Source: Escherichia coli (lineage in GTDB: Bacteria > Pseudomonadota > Gammaproteobacteria > Enterobacterales > Enterobacteriaceae). From it: a stretch of DNA of 64,000 nt. Below are positions 43,720 through 49,246 of the stretch, piece after piece. The translations under genes and the position numbers were made by a program. The stretch lies in the NCBI RefSeq assembly GCF_044647545.1, contig NZ_CP172818.1, one strand, 5' to 3'. The notes beneath the pieces were generated by a model that was not told the DNA's origin, ran no database searches, and worked only from the letters and a program-made list of their open reading frames with translations. Each line of letters opens with the position of its first letter. The stretch's first letter is position 1.

Positions 43720-44835
43720 TTAATATGTCTCACCCAACGCGATTTTTAAGCGATTTATCCAGCCACACAGCCCGCTCCATACCAGCAGATTAATAATCTG
43801 CGTTGATGATTTTTCGTGTTCGAGTAATGGGCTGAACTGGGCGGCGCTAAAGCGATCGGGTGCTCGGGTCAGCCATTGTATCGCCTGAACGGTAGCGCGC
43901 TCAACAGAATGACGGTCAGCCCATTGGTTAATTTCATTTTCGCCCGCGCTGATTTTTTTATATTCATTTGATGAATCCATACAGGTGGCAAAACAAGCAG
44001 GACTGCCATTTATCCGCGCGCATAACAACGCCGCAAGCTGATTATCCGGCTGTGTATTGACCCGTGTGCTGTTTAGCAACTTTTCGAGAAGGGAAAGTGA
44101 AATAGGGTGGAGAGAGAGTGTTTCGGCCAGTTGGCAAAGTTCTGCAGTTGAACTTTTTGTGTGCTCTTCAGGGAGTTTTTCCACCTCATAGCTGCTTCGC
44201 CAGCGTATTGATTCATCAGCAAACAGTGACGCGTCGGCATAGTTTTGTATCTCCAGACCGGGTAACCAGCGTACCGGATGCCCGAGATAAGCCTGAAATG
44301 TCGCAATTGACCGCGCCTGAAAGCCAATAAAACCAATGATTTGGTTAATGATTACACAGTCCCAGGCAGTTAGGCCGACGTCATTCAGATGCTGGCGCGA
44401 TCGGTTGTCGATAATAGAAGGCGAGCTAGCCAGTTGGCGGGCATATTGCGTGATTTGTGCTAACCGATGATTACTTTCCCTGGAGGAATCAGGCCCGGGG
44501 AGCGGCGTAAGTCGCGCCGAATAGTAGTTACATAACCGTTGGACGCCGCAAACCTGAGCAACCGTCAGGGCCGTCGACAAGCGTTCATAAGCGGTGAAGG
44601 TCTGTGAACGGGTCACGGTAAGCTGGTCAGGGAACAACTCTACTGCAAGAACGCGCGCAGGGACCAGCCATGAAAGGAAGGGTGCCAGCGTTTCTTCATC
44701 AAGGATCACGTCGAGCAGAAAGGGATCGCTGACCTTTGCGGCTTCCGGGACCAGAGGTAGAACGTCATACTCCGCAGTACTGGATTGCGTTTCATGATAC
44801 CAGTGGCTTTTGCCGGTGATGTGGCGTTGTTCCAT
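43720..44835 (-). CDS. yciW: Putative oxidoreductase YciW (AhpD-like/CMD)
   Basis: ORF-track frame 43720..44913; preferred start [15 protein letters not shown] preceded by GGAG; start uncertain. Confidence 0.8.
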
Positions 44836-44978
44836 GGGCGCTCCTTGGTCGTAAAGGAAATCGTTATCCTGACGCAAGGCGGGAAGGGGAGAAAGACGGA
44901 TCGGCGATAACAAATATCAGAAAGGTATAACAGAGATAACGGGCGGCAGAACGCCGCCCATCTTTACCAACAGAACGA

Positions 44979-45767
44979 TTATTTCAGTTCGAGTTCGTTC
45001 ATTGCAGCGATGCTGAAACCGCCGTCAACGTGGACCACTTCACCGGAGATACCGGCAGAGAGATCGGAGCACAGGAATGCCGCGGAGTTACCCACATCTT
45101 CAATAGTAACGGTACGGCGAATCGGGGTAACGGCTTCGCAATGAGCCAGCATTTTGCGGAAGTCTTTGATACCGGAAGCCGCCAGAGTACGGATCGGACC
45201 CGCAGAGATGGCGTTAACACGCACACCTTCCGGACCCATCGCGTTCGCCATATAGCGCACGTTCGCTTCCAGAGACGCTTTTGCCAGACCCATAACGTTG
45301 TAGTTCGGGATAGCGCGCTCAGCGCCAAGGTAGGAAAGGGTCAGCAGGGCAGAACCCGGATTCAGCATGGAGCGGCAAGCTTTTGCCATTGCAACGAAGC
45401 TGTAGGAGCTGATGTCGTGGGCAATTTTGAAGCCTTCACGGGTAACGGCGTTAACATAGTCACCATCCAGCTGATCGCCAGGTGCAAAACCAATAGAGTG
45501 TACGAAACCATCAAATTTCGGCCAAACTTTCCCCAGTTCAGCGAACATGGTGTCGATGCTGGCATCTTCGGCAACATCGCACTGCAGAACGATGTCAGAA
45601 CCCAATTGAGCGGCAAATTCTTCTACGCGGCCTTTCAGTTTGTCGTTCTGGTAGGTGAATGCCAGTTCAGCTCCTTCGCGGTGCATCGCCTGAGCGATAC
45701 CGTAGGCGATGGACAGTTTGCTGGCAACACCGGTTACCAGAATGCGCTTACCGGAAAGAAAACCCAT
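44979..45767 (-). CDS. fabI: Enoyl-[acyl-carrier-protein] reductase (NADH)
   Basis: 262-aa [55 protein letters not shown]... Confidence 0.97.
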
Positions 45768-45924
45768 AGCTTTAATCCTTATTGTTGATGCTTGTTGTGC
45801 CTGAAAATCAGGCGATTCGTCGTTTTAGTAAACAGTACGAACAGATAAACGGTTATTATAATCAACCTGGCTGTGGGTGGCTATAGTTGCCAGGTCCGAC
45901 CGGAGCAGGCTGCGGCAGGGGGGG

Positions 45925-46150
45925 CGCTTTTCCCCTCACCCTAACCCTCTCCCCAGAGGGGCGAGGGGACCGTATTGTGCAAATATTGTTACCCCAGCAA
46001 CAAACAGGCTCATACAGCCCCTAACCCTTTCATGGCGATGGCTGGGACGGTTCAGACCTTGCCGAATATTCTCCAGCACCGTCTCCATGTTTTCACCACA
46101 ACAGCTATTCGGCTCGGTCTGCCCCCTCGCTCTTTCAGGGAGAGGGTGAC
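45925..46150. repeat. GC-rich imperfect-palindrome intergenic repeats (box C-like) plus a ~40-bp imperfect direct repeat of the ycjD 3' end
   Basis: ttcccctcaccctaaccctctccccagaggggcgaggggacc (about 45929-45971) and gccccctcgctctttcagggagagggtgacc (about 46121-46151); cggttcag..gaatattctccagcaccgtctcc occurs at about 46048-46087 and again at 46154-46192. Confidence 0.55.
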
Positions 46151-46488
46151 CGGCGGTTCAGTTCCTGCAGAATATTCTCCAGCACCGTCTCCTCATTACA
46201 ATCAATCTCGTTATTCCAGAAACGCAGCACGGTCCAGCCCTGCGACTCAAGCCAGCTAGTGCGCCTGGAATCATAGGCAACTGCTAAATCATGCTGCCCA
46301 CCATCCAGCTCAACGACTACACGCGCCGAGCAGCAAGCAAAATCGAGAATGTAGCTCCCCACTGGATGTTGACGGCGAAATTTGAAATCACTAAAACGTC
46401 GGCTGCGAAGATATCGCCAGAGCTTTCGTTCCTGCAAAGTGAGATTGCGTCTTAAATCACGCGCATTTGATTTAATTTTATCTATCAC
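46135..46488 (-). CDS. ycjD: DUF559 (Vsr/endonuclease-like) protein YcjD
   Basis: 117-aa ORF, apparent GTG start. Confidence 0.85.
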   Translation of the reverse strand: MIDKIKSNARDLRRNLTLQERKLWRYLRSRRFSDFKFRRQHPVGSYILDFACCSARVVVELDGGQHDLAVAYDSRRTSWLESQGWTVLRFWNNEIDCNEETVLENILQELNRRSPSP

Positions 46489-46555
46489 CTCATTCTGACA
46501 AGATTTAATCTTTTGTCAGAATGAGGTGAATAATCTGGAAGGAGGATTCAGAAGA

Positions 46556-47362
46556 TTAACGGTCCTTACGCCACGCATCCGCCGTCAATGCCTCGCCAAA
46601 ATGACCGGCGATCAGCCGTTTGGTGAGTTCATGCAGCGGCGATGCCAGCACATCCGCGGTGCTGCCTCGCTCGACAACCTCGCCCTGATGCATCACCAGC
46701 ACCTGGTCGCTAATGTGCTTCATCATTCCGATATGCTGGGTAACATAAATATACGAAATGCCCTGTTTTTCCTGTAACTCCAGCATCAGGTTAATCAACT
46801 GCGAACGCATCGACATATCCAGTGAGGCGAGGGCTTCATCGGCAATAATGACTTTTGGGCGCAATATCAGCGCGCGCGCCAGACCCAGACGCTGTTTTTG
46901 CCCGGGTGCCAACATATGCGGATAGTAACTGACGTGATCCGGTAGCAGCCCAACCATACGCATCGTTTCAATAATCTGTTTGCGACGCTGTTCCGGTTCC
47001 AGATCGGTGTTCAGACGCAGTGGAAAATCCAGAATTTGCGAGATACGTTGACGGGGATTCAACGAGGTCGAAGGATCCTGAAAAATCATGCGAATACGCT
47101 GACTGCGGAAGGAATAATCGCCAAAATGCAGCGGATGATCGTCAATCAATAACTCGCCGCTGGTAGGTTCTATCATTCCCGCCAGCATTTTTGCCAGCGT
47201 GGATTTACCCGAACCATTCTCGCCAATAATCGCCAGTGTCTGGCCTTCACGTAGCGTAAAGCTCAAGGGTTTTACCGCTTCTACGGTCTGACGACGAAAC
47301 CAGCCGGTCCGGTAGCGGAACGTTTTACTTAAATTACGCACTTCAAGTAGCGTTTCGATCAT
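46556..47362 (-). CDS. sapF: Peptide/putrescine ABC transporter ATP-binding protein SapF
   Basis: 268-aa ORF with Walker A GENGSGKST. Confidence 0.95.
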   Translation of the reverse strand: MIETLLEVRNLSKTFRYRTGWFRRQTVEAVKPLSFTLREGQTLAIIGENGSGKSTLAKMLAGMIEPTSGELLIDDHPLHFGDYSFRSQRIRMIFQDPSTSLNPRQRISQILDFPLRLNTDLEPEQRRKQIIETMRMVGLLPDHVSYYPHMLAPGQKQRLGLARALILRPKVIIADEALASLDMSMRSQLINLMLELQEKQGISYIYVTQHIGMMKHISDQVLVMHQGEVVERGSTADVLASPLHELTKRLIAGHFGEALTADAWRKDR

Positions 47363-47363
47363 C

Positions 47364-48356
47364 TCACTCTTTCTCCATGTTCAGCGGGAAATGACAGGCA
47401 TAGAGATGATTTTTCGCCCCCGTCAAACGTGGCGTCACAATGCATTCTCGTTGTGCATACGGGCAACGCGGCCCCAGACGACACCCAATCGGTAACTGTT
47501 CCAGCAGTGGGATAGCGCCGGGCAGCGTATTGAGGCGACTTTTATGCGGCATCGCGCTGCCGAAGTCTGGTATCGCGCGGATCAGCGCCTGGGTATAAGG
47601 ATGATGTGGCATTGTCACCAACTCCTTACTTGGCGCGGTTTCCACCGTTTGACCGCAGTAAAGCACGTTAATTTTATCCGCCCATTGGCTAAGCATTTGT
47701 AAGTCATGGCTGATAAGCAAAATAGTGGTATTGCTGTTTTGGTTGAGACGCGTCAGCAGGCGAAAGATTTGCGCCTGGGTTGTTGGCTCCATTGAGTTTG
47801 TCGGTTCGTCAGCAATCAGCAGACGCGGTTGATTCGCCAGTGCAATGGCTATCATCACTTTCTGACATTCACCTTCGGTCAACTCATAGGGAAAACTGCG
47901 CATCGCATCTTTGTGATCTTTAATCCCCACGCGGTGCAGCAGTTCAATGGCACGGCGTTTGCGCCAGCCAAAACGCTGCCACCAACGGCCTTTATAGGTC
48001 CAGGCTGGGATGTTTTGCATCAACTGGCGACCCACACGTTCTGAAGGGTCAAGACACGACTGCGGTTCCTGGAAAATCATCGACACGTTGTGACCAACCA
48101 GCTTGCGCCGTTCGCGTGCGGAGAGACGCAGCAAATCGATATCATCAAAACGCATACGATCAGCTGTGACACGCCAGTTATCTTTATTCACCCCACAAAT
48201 CGCTTTCGCAATCAAACTTTTGCCGGAACCTGATTCGCCAACAAGACCGCGGATTTCACCTTCGGTTAAGGTCATACTTACGCGGTCGACGGCTTTAACC
48301 CACTCATCACCGGTTTTAAATTCAATGGTCAGGTTACGAATATCGAGTAATGGCAT
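47364..48356 (-). CDS. sapD: Peptide ABC transporter ATP-binding protein SapD
   Basis: 330-aa ORF with Walker A GESGSGKS. Confidence 0.95.
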
Positions 48357-49246
48357 TATTCCACCCCCGCAATAATTGCACGACGGACACCGTCGCCAAG
48401 GAGGTTAACCAACAGCACGCTAATCATAATTGCCGCACCTGGCAGCATGACAGTCCACGGGGCGACATAAATCAGTTCCAGCGCATCACCGAGCATCGCT
48501 CCCCATTCAGGCGAGGGGAGTTGTGCGCCGAGATCGAGAAAGCCCAGCGCGGCGATATCGAGAATTGCCATCGACAGTGCGCGGGTGATCTCGGTGACCA
48601 GCCCGGCGGTGATGTTTGGCATCACAGCAAACCAGAGAATATTCAGCGTTGATGCGCCATCCAGACGGGCGGCGATAACGTACTCTTTTTCCAGTTCGTC
48701 ATGCACCATGCTGTAAATCGAACGTACCATACGCGGCAGCAGCGCCAGCCAGACGGCAAACATGGCGTGAGACAAACTCGGTCCGGCAAACGCTACAACG
48801 ATAATTGCCAGCAGTAGGGAAGGGATCGCCAGTAAGGTATCCAGAATATGGTTAAGCACCGCTGAGCGGAGGCCGTGGGTCGCCCCGGCGAAGGTGCCCA
48901 GAACCAGGCCACAGATCGTCGCGGCAAGCGTCACCACAAATGCGCCACCTACGGTTGGCGCAGCTCCGCTCAGTAAACGGCTTAAAACATCGCGTCCGAG
49001 GTCGTCAGTCCCCAGGAAGAAAGAAACTTCGCCATAGCGCGACCATGACGGCGGCAATAATTGGTAACCGAGAAATTGCTGGTCGATGCCGTAAGGCGCA
49101 AACCAGCCGCCAAAAATACACAGTACAGCCAGCCCCGCGCAGCCGTACAGGCCGACCATCGCAGAGGCGTCACTATAAAATTTGCGCCAGGCGGTACGCA
49201 GCGTGCCCGGCGGGCGCTTTTCGCTGTATACGCTATCGTAAGGCAT
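48356..49246 (-). CDS. sapC: Peptide ABC transporter permease SapC
   Basis: 296-aa polytopic permease (OppC/DppC family). Confidence 0.95.

What the first reader, a model, noticed from the sequence alone, without database searches (positions are those of the whole stretch)
45880..46200. GC-rich palindromic repeats and a duplicated ycjD 3' end in the fabI-ycjD spacer
The spacer carries two related GC-rich imperfect palindromes (about 45929-45971 and 46121-46151) resembling E. coli box C-type repeats. A roughly 40-bp segment that forms the 3' end of ycjD (cggttcag..gaatattctccagcaccgtctcc, about 46154-46192) is repeated imperfectly 106 bp upstream in the intergenic region (about 46048-46087). 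This suggests the ycjD terminus lies inside a repeat and that the locus has undergone repeat-mediated duplication or rearrangement. ORF-track entries 45877..46149 and 45975..46259 are probably artefacts of these repeats.
Basis: seen in the sequence. Interest (0 to 1): 0.3.

Follow-up and report, generated by a model that had tools for sequence, protein, structure and literature searches.

The report
BoxC repeats partnered with YcjD nuclease
The GC-rich palindromes between fabI and ycjD are the long-known but unexplained E. coli "BoxC" repeats, and comparison across bacteria shows that the small nuclease gene ycjD is almost always embedded in such repeats, which gives this 30-year-old orphan repeat family a candidate partner enzyme.

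Summary
That third copy follows a 39-nt copy (35/39 identical) of the ycjD 3' end. The duplicated unit is therefore "ycjD 3' end + BoxC". BoxC (also called PIT, TMECO or HPGQ) is already known, and this locus is listed in published catalogues.

What I could not find in the literature is a link to the gene. In 56 of the 80 closest ycjD relatives from many phyla, a BoxC-type motif sits at the end of the DUF559 ORF, about 325-fold denser than in the far flanks. Outside enterobacteria a second, usually inverted copy often lies upstream. In some bacteria the BoxC-DUF559-BoxC module is inserted in frame inside PriA, IleRS, TrpC, CobT and EarP. E. coli genomes with ycjD carry a median of 18 BoxC places; genomes without it carry 4.

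Best reading: an old nuclease-plus-repeat module, with YcjD acting on BoxC. That last step is inferred, not shown.

The parts
45855..45883 (-). Sigma-70-like promoter hexamers (TAGCCA-17-TATAAT) upstream of fabI. They lie in the part of the spacer shared with strains that lack ycjD.
   Evidence: 10/12 match. Bases up to 45890 are identical in O157-type strains that carry eefRABCD instead of ycjD.
45932..45968 (-). BoxC-1: an intact three-block BoxC/PIT/TMECO/HPGQ element, type A (TTA second loop), with one stem mismatch. It is the outer end of the ycjD cassette.
   Evidence: Its reverse complement equals TMECO no. 9 in Holder 2015 Table 1. It is HPGQ no. 22 in PMC5100583. DNA hairpin -12.4 kcal/mol, z=-2.6. 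Sequence shared with O157 ends at 45890, with weak similarity continuing a further ~30 nt towards BoxC-1 (my reading of the sequences printed).
45969..46018 (-). Spacer s1. Its box-proximal part (CTGTATGAGCCTGTTTGTTGCTG in ycjD sense) also follows the gene-proximal BoxC in the Escherichia sp. genome that lacks the duplication.
   Evidence: window vs L007, L008.
46019..46047 (+). BoxC-mid: a decayed BoxC in the same orientation as BoxC-2. It has lost its third block here and is nearly intact in other strains.
   Evidence: TUM10828 carries 13 more bases; L008: CCCTCACCCCAGCCCTCTCCCTGAAAGGACTAGGG. It no longer folds, z=+0.6.
46048..46088 (-). Pseudo-3' end of ycjD. It would encode (M)ETVLENIRQGLNR, compared with EETVLENILQELNR in YcjD.
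   Evidence: D1 repeat, 35/39 identical. The 50-aa ORF 45936-46088 has no Pfam hit. Identity drops to about 37% upstream of GGAGACGG, which is not above chance.
46089..46120 (.). Spacer s2. It contains an inverted partial copy of the pseudo-3' end (46106-46128 vs 46046-46068) and the motif GCAGACCG...GTGGTGAAAA, which also follows BoxC units in another genus.
   Evidence: I2 inverted repeat, 23 nt, 78%. The L021 59-nt tandem unit carries GGCAGACCGGTGGTGTGAATA.
46121..46149 (+). BoxC-2: a type-B-like BoxC truncated to a plain hairpin (12 nt, GAGGGTTGGGGT, missing relative to other strains). It supplies ycjD codons S-P-S-P and the stop codon at 46135-46137.
   Evidence: Pugh 2026 notes that the ORF is 12 nt longer at its 3' end in ST69/ST182. 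The complete form occurs in L003, L007, L008 and in all Enterobacter-group loci.
46135..46488 (-). ycjD, a 117-aa DUF559 protein with a Vsr-like PD-(D/E)XK nuclease fold. The repeated 3' segment is 46154-46192.
   Evidence: Pfam PF04480 E=1.4e-49. NCBIfam NF007294 equivalog. PDB 3HRL E=1.1e-27. D49, E60, D62 and H66 are conserved in at least 99% of 75 aligned sequences (YcjD plus 74 relatives).
46485..46529 (-). Perfect 17-bp inverted repeat downstream of sapF that overlaps the ycjD start codon. It marks the inner boundary of the ycjD cassette.
   Evidence: I3. A related hairpin is present downstream of sapF in the O157 strain that has eefRABCD instead of ycjD.

Best explanation
Shown: the spacer consists of BoxC (PIT/TMECO/HPGQ) elements plus a decayed second copy of the junction 'ycjD 3' end + BoxC'. 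In ycjD sense the order is: ycjD, BoxC-2 (gene-proximal, type B-like, holds the stop codon), 32 nt, pseudo-3' end, BoxC-mid, 50 nt, inverted BoxC-1 (type A). This roughly 600-bp cassette fills the fabI-sapF slot in 62% of E. coli genomes. In the rest, the slot holds eefRABCD.

Also shown: this is one instance of a conserved module. In YcjD-family genes from many phyla, the ORF ends inside a BoxC-type three-block palindrome. Outside Enterobacteriaceae a second, usually inverted copy often lies just upstream, giving a 400-520-bp unit bounded by terminal-inverted-repeat-like boxes. The motif sequence varies together with the lineage of the gene. The module can sit in frame inside unrelated host genes.

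Inferred mechanism: YcjD is a small Vsr-fold nuclease whose conserved acidic and histidine motif residues are retained. I propose that it recognises BoxC DNA, probably in an extruded hairpin or other non-B form, and nicks or cuts it. Repair of those breaks by copying from other BoxC-bearing DNA (gene conversion, template switching, slippage) would then do four things:
- spread and homogenise solo BoxC units and about 100-bp BoxC pairs;
- copy the gene into BoxC sites, in a homing-like way;
- create tandem BoxC arrays;
- leave local scars such as the pseudo-3'-end/BoxC-mid unit and the loss of the third block in BoxC-2.

The E. coli copy has only its 3' boxes and is single-copy, so it is probably a resident, possibly domesticated, copy.

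Sub-confidences: identity of the repeats and the duplication 0.95; ycjD-BoxC module association 0.85; YcjD acts on BoxC and drives its dynamics 0.35-0.4.
For: Identity: exact match to TMECO no. 9; the same locus is listed as an HPGQ.

Duplication unit.

Association:
- 56/80 loci have a box at the end of the homology, 49 of them in the same orientation. Density is 8.2/kb there against 0.025/kb in 318 kb of far flanks, with none inside the gene.
- The reading frame through the box gives PSPxPSP* or PLPxGEG tails. The same tails, plus N-side GEG peptides, appear in an independent set of 150 representatives out of 25,064 family clusters.
- 22/80 loci also have an upstream box. 13 of 16 two-sided loci are inverted, spanning about 400-520 nt. 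The clean case is L075: 45-nt arms, 93% complementary.
- The loci fall into at least 10 multi-locus genomic contexts plus 27-30 singletons, including three different slots within Enterobacteriaceae.
- Variant motifs flank the N. gonorrhoeae, Synechocystis and PCC 7002 copies.

In-frame insertions: PriA and IleRS; EarP, CobT, TrpC, HsdS and methyltransferases.

Copy number: ycjD+ genomes have 10-27 BoxC places (median 18, n=37) and ycjD- genomes 1-17 (median 4, n=23). Holder Table S7 gives 13-30 for strains that I assign from memory to phylogroups A/B1/C and 0-2 for those I assign to B2. Pugh 2026 places ycjD in A/B1/C.

BoxC pairs behave as discrete units: a ~104-nt filled/empty polymorphism at hrpB-mrcB, and a conserved 27-nt spacer in three K-12 pairs.

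Recurrent tandem arrays at DUF559 3' ends: 5.8 copies of a 59-nt unit in L021; L032, L036, L024. Partial DUF559 remnants lie next to intact genes in L074 and L076.

Against: - No biochemical or genetic evidence links YcjD to BoxC.
- The E. coli and other enterobacterial copies have no upstream box (1/32). ycjD is strictly single-copy and is never found elsewhere in 5,426 genomes, so there is no sign of recent gene mobility in E. coli.
- No target-site duplication is visible at the filled/empty site.
- The copy-number contrast follows phylogroups, so it amounts to only a few independent events. ycjD-negative O157-type genomes still keep about 12 boxes.
- Many of the 80 loci are not independent: 21 share one locus.
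- 24/80 loci have no box by my regex, although several of these have box-like protein tails.
- According to Holder's summary of the follow-up PIT study by the Maher group (its ref. 41), PIT elements showed no promoter, terminator, polymerase-blocking (in vivo) or conjugation effects. DMS footprinting found no triplex in vivo.
- YcjD-like genes are rare on plasmids (34 records, many of them chromids or mislabelled chromosomes) and in phages (2 records).
Confidence: 0.6

Rival explanations
1. Structure-driven instability only. BoxC elements are non-B-DNA (hairpin, triplex or G-quadruplex) sequences that stall replication and provoke slippage, deletion and duplication by themselves. The pseudo-3' end is a simple tandem duplication by slippage between BoxC copies, and ycjD is an innocent neighbour.
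For: Holder 2015 shows that TMECO loci are far more rearranged than control intergenic sites and describes collapse of paired boxes into simple hairpins. The same collapse is seen here at hrpB-mrcB and in BoxC-2. In strain MFDS1019527 the structure reads as a clean tandem duplication of about 125 nt. Each strain's pseudo-copy resembles its own ycjD allele.
Against: It does not explain why the DUF559 ORF ends in a BoxC in the same orientation and frame in unrelated genomic contexts across phyla. It also does not explain why boxes bracket the gene as inverted repeats, or why the motif variant changes along with the gene. It can be true for the local duplication step while the module association also holds.
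Confidence: 0.25
2. Expression element. The BoxC copies are the 3' UTR structure, terminator or mRNA stabiliser of ycjD and insulate the fabI promoter. The association with DUF559 genes reflects a regulatory requirement.
For: The 300-nt ycjD 3' region folds well as RNA: -127 kcal/mol, z=-3.3, with BoxC-2 pairing with BoxC-1. The boxes lie between a stop codon and the next promoter.
Against: No T-run follows the boxes, and the terminator scan finds none there. PIT elements were reported to lack promoter and terminator activity (cited). Upstream boxes, in-frame insertions inside host ORFs and about 20 solo copies per genome are not explained.
Confidence: 0.07
3. YcjD is a solitary Vsr-type mismatch-repair endonuclease, like Caulobacter VsrA. 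BoxC merely accumulates at its 3' end because BoxC-type elements prefer some feature of these genes.
For: DUF559 proteins have the Vsr fold. VsrA is functionally tied to a cytosine methyltransferase.
Against: No methyltransferase gene adjoins ycjD in the window. A target preference of an unrelated repeat for one small gene family across phyla, with motif and gene co-varying, is less parsimonious than a partnership. It gives no reason for in-frame whole-module insertions.
Confidence: 0.08

Closest known systems
BoxC / PIT / TMECO / HPGQ repeats of E. coli (Bergler 1992; Hoyne 2000; Holder 2015, PMC4666352; Kaplan 2016, PMC5100583)
   Same: BoxC-1 is one of the catalogued copies, identical in sequence. 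The three-block consensus, the A/B types, the inverted A+B pairs, the intergenic location and the local hypervariability all match.
   Different: None of the papers I could read mentions ycjD as a partner, DUF559 or any associated protein. Holder 2015 states that the motif is not associated with mobile elements. The duplicated ycjD 3' end, the stop codon inside a box and the cross-phylum gene linkage are not described there.
REP/REPIN sequences and their RAYT transposases
   Same: A short GC-rich palindromic repeat is dispersed in tens of copies, often as inverted doublets. A single-copy chromosomal gene for a nucleic-acid enzyme is itself flanked by the repeats. Repeat sequence and enzyme lineage co-vary.
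   Different: RAYTs are HUH/Y1 (IS200/IS605-like) transposases (from my own knowledge). YcjD is a Vsr-fold PD-(D/E)XK nuclease of 117 aa. Activity of YcjD on its repeats is untested. BoxC has three blocks rather than a simple hairpin.
Homing endonuclease genes, in particular the Vsr-fold enzyme I-Bth0305I (PDB 3R3P, grouped with VSR/DUF559 in PMC3424549)
   Same: A small nuclease of the same fold superfamily. Relatives of ycjD sit as in-frame insertions in conserved essential genes (priA, ileS).
   Different: No intron or intein surrounds the gene. The insertions are bounded by BoxC repeats and would be translated as part of the host protein. Most copies, including E. coli ycjD, are free-standing and intergenic.
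Rickettsia palindromic elements and other MITEs that insert in frame into ORFs
   Same: A palindromic repeat-bounded unit is tolerated inside coding regions because it carries no stop codon in the host frame. One host lineage (L055) is a Rickettsiales MAG.
   Different: RPEs are non-coding (from my own knowledge). Here the unit carries a complete nuclease domain. I made no sequence comparison with RPEs.

Membership tests
BoxC / TMECO | Consensus 5'-CCCTCNCCC N3-6 GGGNGAGGG N3 GGGNGAGGG-3' (Holder 2015 Methods) | tested here: met
   BoxC-1 (45932-45968, minus strand) equals TMECO no. 9 exactly. BoxC-2 meets the consensus in other strains but lacks the third block in the window. BoxC-mid is degenerate.
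BoxC / TMECO | Multiple dispersed intergenic copies per genome | tested here: met
   23 copies in MG1655. Median of 16 places per genome across 5,425 E. coli genomes. The window itself holds only this cluster.
BoxC / TMECO | Formation of an intrastrand triplex or G-quadruplex | not testable with these tools
   Only hairpin folding could be computed. Published in vitro data exist, but the in vivo footprint was negative.
DUF559 / Vsr-like PD-(D/E)XK nuclease (ycjD) | Match to PF04480 above the gathering score | tested here: met
   167 bits against a cutoff of 20.6. NCBIfam NF007294 at 267.8 bits against a cutoff of 218.
DUF559 / Vsr-like PD-(D/E)XK nuclease (ycjD) | Conserved acidic and histidine motif residues (D...ExDGxxH) | tested here: met
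   D49, E60, D62 and H66 are conserved in at least 99% of 75 aligned sequences and are present in the window protein.
DUF559 / Vsr-like PD-(D/E)XK nuclease (ycjD) | Endonuclease activity | not testable with these tools
   Indirect only: the solved relative 3HRL is named 'endonuclease-like protein', and Caulobacter VsrA is responsible for an SOS/DNA-damage response in methylase-deficient cells.
REP-RAYT-type repeat/enzyme partnership | The enzyme gene is flanked by copies of the dispersed repeat | tested here: met
   56/80 loci at the 3' end and 22/80 upstream. In E. coli the boxes are on the 3' side only.
REP-RAYT-type repeat/enzyme partnership | The enzyme is an HUH/Y1 transposase | tested here: not met
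   YcjD matches only DUF559 and REase_MTES_1575. It therefore resembles the system in layout but is not a member.
IS / MITE (autonomous element plus non-autonomous derivatives) | Terminal inverted repeats bounding the coding element | tested here: met
   13 of 16 two-sided loci are inverted. L075 has 45-nt arms, 93% complementary. Not met for the E. coli copy.
IS / MITE (autonomous element plus non-autonomous derivatives) | Target-site duplication and multiple identical gene copies | tested here: not met
   No duplication is visible at the hrpB-mrcB filled/empty site. ycjD is single-copy in every E. coli genome that has it.
Homing endonuclease gene | Insertion inside a conserved host gene, with empty alleles in relatives | tested here: inconclusive
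   In-frame insertions in PriA, IleRS, EarP, CobT and TrpC split the host Pfam domains. I did not retrieve the corresponding empty alleles from close relatives. No intron or intein context was seen.
Intrinsic terminator | GC-rich hairpin followed by a T-run | tested here: not met
   The scan finds no terminator at any BoxC copy.

The most novel reading that the evidence does not exclude
BoxC/PIT/TMECO repeats are the cis-elements of a previously unrecognised class of selfish element. Its only protein is a ~115-aa Vsr-fold PD-(D/E)XK nuclease of the YcjD family. Solo boxes and ~100-bp box pairs are its non-autonomous derivatives. The gene-bearing form spreads by break-and-copy (homing-like) into box sites and can live as an in-frame insertion inside essential genes such as priA and ileS.
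Probability: 0.35. Interest if true: 0.85.

Novelty: new variant of a known kind. Interest (0 to 1): 0.6.

Why it matters
BoxC has been catalogued four times under four names since 1992. It has been studied biophysically as a triplex and as a G-quadruplex, and it has been tied to genome instability, but no protein partner or origin has been proposed. If YcjD-family nucleases are its partner, several things follow.
- The instability of BoxC loci, their very uneven copy number among E. coli lineages, and the function of one of the remaining uncharacterised K-12 genes all become directly testable with simple biochemistry and genetics.
- It would add a nuclease-based counterpart to the REP/RAYT system.
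- It would explain why DUF559 genes stand out in screens for inverted-repeat-flanked genes (14-fold enrichment among predicted programmed inversions).
- It would explain why many annotated proteins carry odd PSPxPLPxGEG tails or an internal DUF559 domain.

If the link is only structural hitch-hiking, the finding reduces to a known repeat plus a trivial local duplication.

Tried and rejected
- **Wrong consensus:** my first guess from memory (CCCTCTCCCNNNGGGGAGAGGG) found nothing in the window. The literal motif found only the local copy.
- **Rfam:** a scan of 44800-46700 at E<=1 gave only sub-threshold chance hits, mostly on the sapF hairpin. No known RNA family is present.
- **Dispersed gene end:** I tested whether the ycjD 3' end is part of a dispersed repeat. 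It is not; there are at most 2 places per genome.
- **Length of the pseudo-copy:** identity falls to 11/30 upstream of GGAGACGG, so the homology is about 41 nt plus the box.
- **Other gene remnants:** self-tblastn of each of the 80 loci was mostly noise. Only L058 (a second gene), L074 and L076 were convincing.
- **K-12 BoxC pairs:** I looked for DUF559 remnants next to them and found none. Three pairs share a conserved 27-nt spacer instead.
- **Empty-site comparison at ygfF-gcvP:** this failed because B2-type strains lack ygfF altogether. hrpB-mrcB worked.
- **Defence-system reading:** no PADLOC match.
- **Plasmid or phage cargo:** rare.
- **Literature:** searches for DUF559, ycjD, COG2852/PF04480, TMECO/BoxC/PIT and the motif sequence itself found no paper linking the gene family to the repeat. 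The library is open-access only, and I could not read Bergler 1992 or Hoyne 2000 directly.
Full report
**1. Observation**

The region lies between fabI (44979-45767, minus) and ycjD (46135-48488 is wrong; correct span 46135-46488, minus), with sapF at 46556-47362. Over fabI-ycjD the window differs from E. coli K-12 MG1655 by 11 substitutions in 1.58 kb and no indels.

Its 23-nt core occurs exactly twice in the window, against 0.00 expected. Both palindromes are present, at 45932-45968 and 46121-46149, and they are mutually complementary (I1).

**2. Anatomy, read in ycjD sense (minus strand)**

The order is as follows.
- The ycjD coding end: ...EETVLENILQELNRR-SPSP-stop.
- BoxC-2, whose hairpin loop contains the stop codon (46135-46137).
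- 32 nt (s2).
- A pseudo-copy of the last ~41 nt of ycjD, which would read (M)ETVLENIRQGLNR.
- A decayed BoxC ('mid', 46019-46047).
- 50 nt (s1).
- BoxC-1 in the inverted orientation.
- The fabI promoter-like hexamers at 45855-45883.

The duplicated unit is therefore the junction 'ycjD 3' end + BoxC'. Homology does not extend convincingly further into the gene: 11/30 identities upstream of the repeat.

Other strains show the boxes better. TUM10828 and strain E69 carry 12 more bases in BoxC-2 (a complete three-block element, so the ORF is 4 codons longer) and 13 more in BoxC-mid. MFDS1019527 has a cleaner ~125-nt tandem duplication in which the spacer is also repeated.

**3. What the palindromes are**

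The reverse complement of 45932-45968 is identical to TMECO no. 9 (type A with one stem mismatch, MG1655 1,351,204-1,351,239) in Table 1 of Holder et al. 2015. That paper states that TMECO is the motif first called BoxC (its ref. 46, Bergler 1992, the envM/fabI sequence paper) and later PIT. Kaplan et al. 2016 list the same copy as a hairpin-G-quadruplex motif between fabI and 'yjcD'.

K-12 has 23 copies, five of them as inverted A+B pairs. As a repeat family this is already known, and this locus is one of the catalogued loci.

**4. Variation at the locus**

- 3,327 of 5,426 complete E. coli genomes have at least 80% of the 433-nt spacer query, and 3,377 have ycjD. About 2,000 share only the first 123 nt next to fabI.
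- In an O157 genome the segment from 45891 to the hairpin downstream of sapF is replaced by a TetR + RND + MFS island of about 7.5 kb. Pugh et al. 2026 name this island eefRABCD. They report it in phylogroups B2, D, E, F and G, with ycjD in A, B1 and C plus ST69 and ST182, and they note the 12-nt length difference at the ycjD 3' end.
- Since outgroups carry the complete box, I read the K-12 form as a deletion of the third BoxC block.
- Escherichia sp. E1V33 (L007) has ycjD between sapF and fabI with BoxC(B), 102 nt, then BoxC(A), and no pseudo-unit. The sequence that follows its proximal box (GCTGTACGTGCCTG) matches what follows BoxC-mid in E. coli. BoxC-mid and the pseudo-3' end may therefore be the older copy and the present gene end the newer one. 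A tandem duplication followed by decay is equally possible.
- The ycjD 3' end is not dispersed: at most two places per genome, both at this locus.

**5. The wider pattern**

I fetched the 80 best YcjD relatives from one genome per species and scanned them for the three-block motif, allowing up to 3 substitutions.
- 56 loci have a box starting within -45 to +60 nt of the end of the homology, 49 of them in the same orientation as in E. coli.
- Density there is 8.2 per kb, against 0.025 per kb in 318 kb of far flanks. There are no hits inside the genes.
- The ORFs read into the box and end ...PSPRPSP*...PSPQPSP*...PNPLPxGEG and similar.
- 22 loci (21 of the 48 non-enterobacterial ones) also have a box within 170 nt upstream. 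Of 16 two-sided loci, 13 have the gene-proximal boxes inverted relative to each other, spanning about 400-520 nt.
- Gallionella L075 is the simplest case: 45-nt arms, 93% complementary, around a 124-aa ORF. L038 and L079 have a palindromic box pair on each side.
- The loci fall into many unrelated genomic contexts, including three different conserved slots within Enterobacteriaceae: Escherichia sapF-fabI, an Enterobacter-group slot and a Kluyvera-group slot.
- The motif differs between lineages (CCCTCACCCC..., CTCTCCCCCAACCCCTCTCCC..., CCCCCACCCTAACCCTCCCCC...). Copies from Neisseria gonorrhoeae (close to PDB 3HRL), Synechocystis and Picosynechococcus are flanked by their own variants.
- An independent protein-level sample shows the same box-encoded peptides on the C side and often the N side of the domain: the best 150 of 25,064 family representatives in a 1.84-billion-protein library.

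**6. In-frame insertions**

In three alphaproteobacterial MAGs the box-DUF559-box unit lies in frame inside PriA, between the 3'-DNA-binding and helicase domains. In three others, one of them a Rickettsiales MAG, it lies inside the catalytic domain of IleRS.

Among the representatives, an internal DUF559 domain splits EarP, CobT (DBI_PRT), TrpC (IGPS) and HsdS domains and follows DNA methyltransferase domains. This is how a mobile insertion behaves, not an ordinary gene.

**7. Copy number**

I used a composite query (ycjD body + BoxC) and took 60 genomes at even steps down the ranking.
- ycjD-positive genomes have 10-27 places (median 18, n=37).
- ycjD-negative genomes have 1-17 places (median 4, n=23).
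- Mann-Whitney p = 1.6e-9.

Holder's Table S7 gives per-strain TMECO counts. The phylogroup assignments of those strains are mine, from memory: 13-30 for A/B1/C strains, 0-2 for B2, 10-11 for O157/O55, 6-7 for group F strains. The contrast is strong but follows phylogroups, so it represents few independent events.

**8. BoxC pairs as units**

Three K-12 pairs share a conserved 27-nt spacer (AACAGGCCRGCAYYGGYGCGAA...), so the pair is a composite element of about 100 bp.

At hrpB-mrcB the pair is a clean ~104-nt presence/absence polymorphism. An intermediate allele has collapsed to a simple hairpin, and no target-site duplication is visible.

Tandem amplification of box units at DUF559 3' ends is recurrent: 5.8 copies of a 59-nt unit in L021, three copies in L032, and arrays in L024 and L036. 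The L021 unit shares the motif GCAGACCG...GTGGTG with the E. coli s2 spacer.

**9. The protein**

YcjD matches DUF559 end to end and the NCBIfam equivalog, and aligns to the solved 'endonuclease-like protein' 3HRL at E = 1e-27. It keeps the conserved D49, E60, D62 and H66.

DUF559 is grouped with Vsr and with a group I intron homing endonuclease (PDB 3R3P) in the PD-(D/E)XK survey. A Caulobacter DUF559 protein is responsible for an SOS/DNA-damage response when its cognate methylation is missing.

YcjD has no match to defence-system models. Relatives are rare on plasmids and in phages.

**10. Mechanism and rivals**

Shown:
- the identity of the repeats;
- the duplicated junction;
- the strain variation;
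- the cross-phylum linkage of gene and repeat;
- the inverted-repeat architecture;
- the in-frame insertions;
- the copy-number contrast.

Inferred: YcjD recognises and cuts BoxC, and repair of those breaks spreads boxes, homogenises them, copies the gene into box sites and leaves scars such as the pseudo-3' end.

The main rival is that BoxC instability is purely structural (Holder's view) and the nuclease is irrelevant to it. That could well account for the local duplication step, but it does not explain the gene linkage.

A terminator or UTR role is weakly supported by RNA folding (z = -3.3). It is contradicted by the missing T-run, the published negative assays and the upstream and in-ORF copies.

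**11. Comparison and novelty**

The layout resembles REP/REPIN-RAYT (a dispersed palindromic repeat with a single enzyme gene flanked by it), but the enzyme class is different, so it is not a member. It resembles a homing endonuclease gene in fold and in its insertions into essential genes, but there is no intron or intein. It resembles IS/MITE pairs in having terminal inverted repeats, but there is no target duplication and no multicopy gene.

I found no paper in the searchable library that connects DUF559/ycjD with BoxC/PIT/TMECO/HPGQ. The 14-fold enrichment of DUF559 genes among predicted programmed-inversion targets is probably a side effect of these inverted boxes.

**12. Caveats**

- The 80 loci are the closest relatives of one query, and many share ancestry.
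- The motif was defined by my own regular expression.
- The E. coli copy is one-sided and immobile.
- The literature search covers open-access papers only.
- Nothing here demonstrates enzymatic activity on BoxC.

Noticed in passing
window 45891-46500; L001/L005 (O157 strain Al Ain): The whole ycjD + BoxC cassette (~600 bp) and the ~7.5-kb eefRABCD efflux island are alternative occupants of the same fabI-sapF slot. The fabI promoter side is identical up to 45890. A related hairpin downstream of sapF is kept in both forms, and in K-12-type strains the ycjD start codon lies in one arm of it.
   Followed up: yes
L038:1883-4735, L041:1301-5008 (also L045, L051, L055, L061); proteins P0046, P0063, P0071, P0124: The BoxC-DUF559-BoxC module is inserted in frame inside PriA, IleRS, EarP, CobT, TrpC and HsdS in various bacteria and splits the host Pfam domains. 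I did not look for empty alleles in close relatives.
   Followed up: partly
L087 (MG1655 164300-164900) vs L095, L096, L097: The hrpB-mrcB BoxC A+B pair is a clean ~104-nt presence/absence polymorphism among E. coli strains. One strain has an intermediate allele in which the pair has collapsed into a single plain hairpin. No target-site duplication is visible.
   Followed up: yes
L088, L089, L090 (MG1655 fepB-entC, ygfF-gcvP, alx-sstT): Three K-12 BoxC pairs share a conserved 27-nt spacer (AACAGGCCRGCAYYGGYGCGAAnAnTTA) between the A and B boxes, so the pair is a ~100-bp composite repeat. Type B solo copies share a different flank (GTGCGCGCTGATG).
   Followed up: partly
L021:2838-3182; L032:2830-3020; L036, L024 downstream of the DUF559 gene: Tandem arrays of BoxC-containing units (59-nt period x 5.8 in Pseudenterobacter; 55-nt x 3 in Lelliottia) lie directly 3' of YcjD homologues. 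The Pseudenterobacter unit shares the motif GCAGACCG...GTGGTG with the E. coli spacer at window 46089-46120.
   Followed up: partly
L047, L064, L067, L070, L080: YcjD-like modules in Dyella, Stenotrophomonas, a Pseudomonas MAG and Paraburkholderia share homologous flanking genes on both sides. The upstream gene looks to me like an aconitase-family gene (unverified). This could reflect site preference, transfer of the whole region or old synteny.
   Followed up: no
window 45932-45968 and the 'mm' types in Holder Table 1: Most type A BoxC copies carry the same single mismatch in the hairpin stem (CCCTCGCCC against GGGAGAGGG, i.e. G·A on one strand and T·C on the other). A conserved mismatch is notable next to a gene of the mismatch-nicking Vsr fold. 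This is pure speculation and was not tested.
   Followed up: no
window 46106-46128 vs 46046-46068: A 23-nt inverted repeat (78%) places an inverted partial copy of the pseudo-3' end next to BoxC-2. This suggests template switching during formation of the duplication.
   Followed up: no
L058:2501-2833 and 3566-3883: A Gastranaerophilales MAG has two DUF559 genes (53% identical) about 1 kb apart, and the second has its own flanking boxes. L074 and L076 have partial DUF559 remnants next to the intact gene.
   Followed up: partly
window 44979-46560: The window is K-12-like but not identical to MG1655: 11 substitutions in 1.58 kb, seven of them within fabI, and no indels.
   Followed up: no
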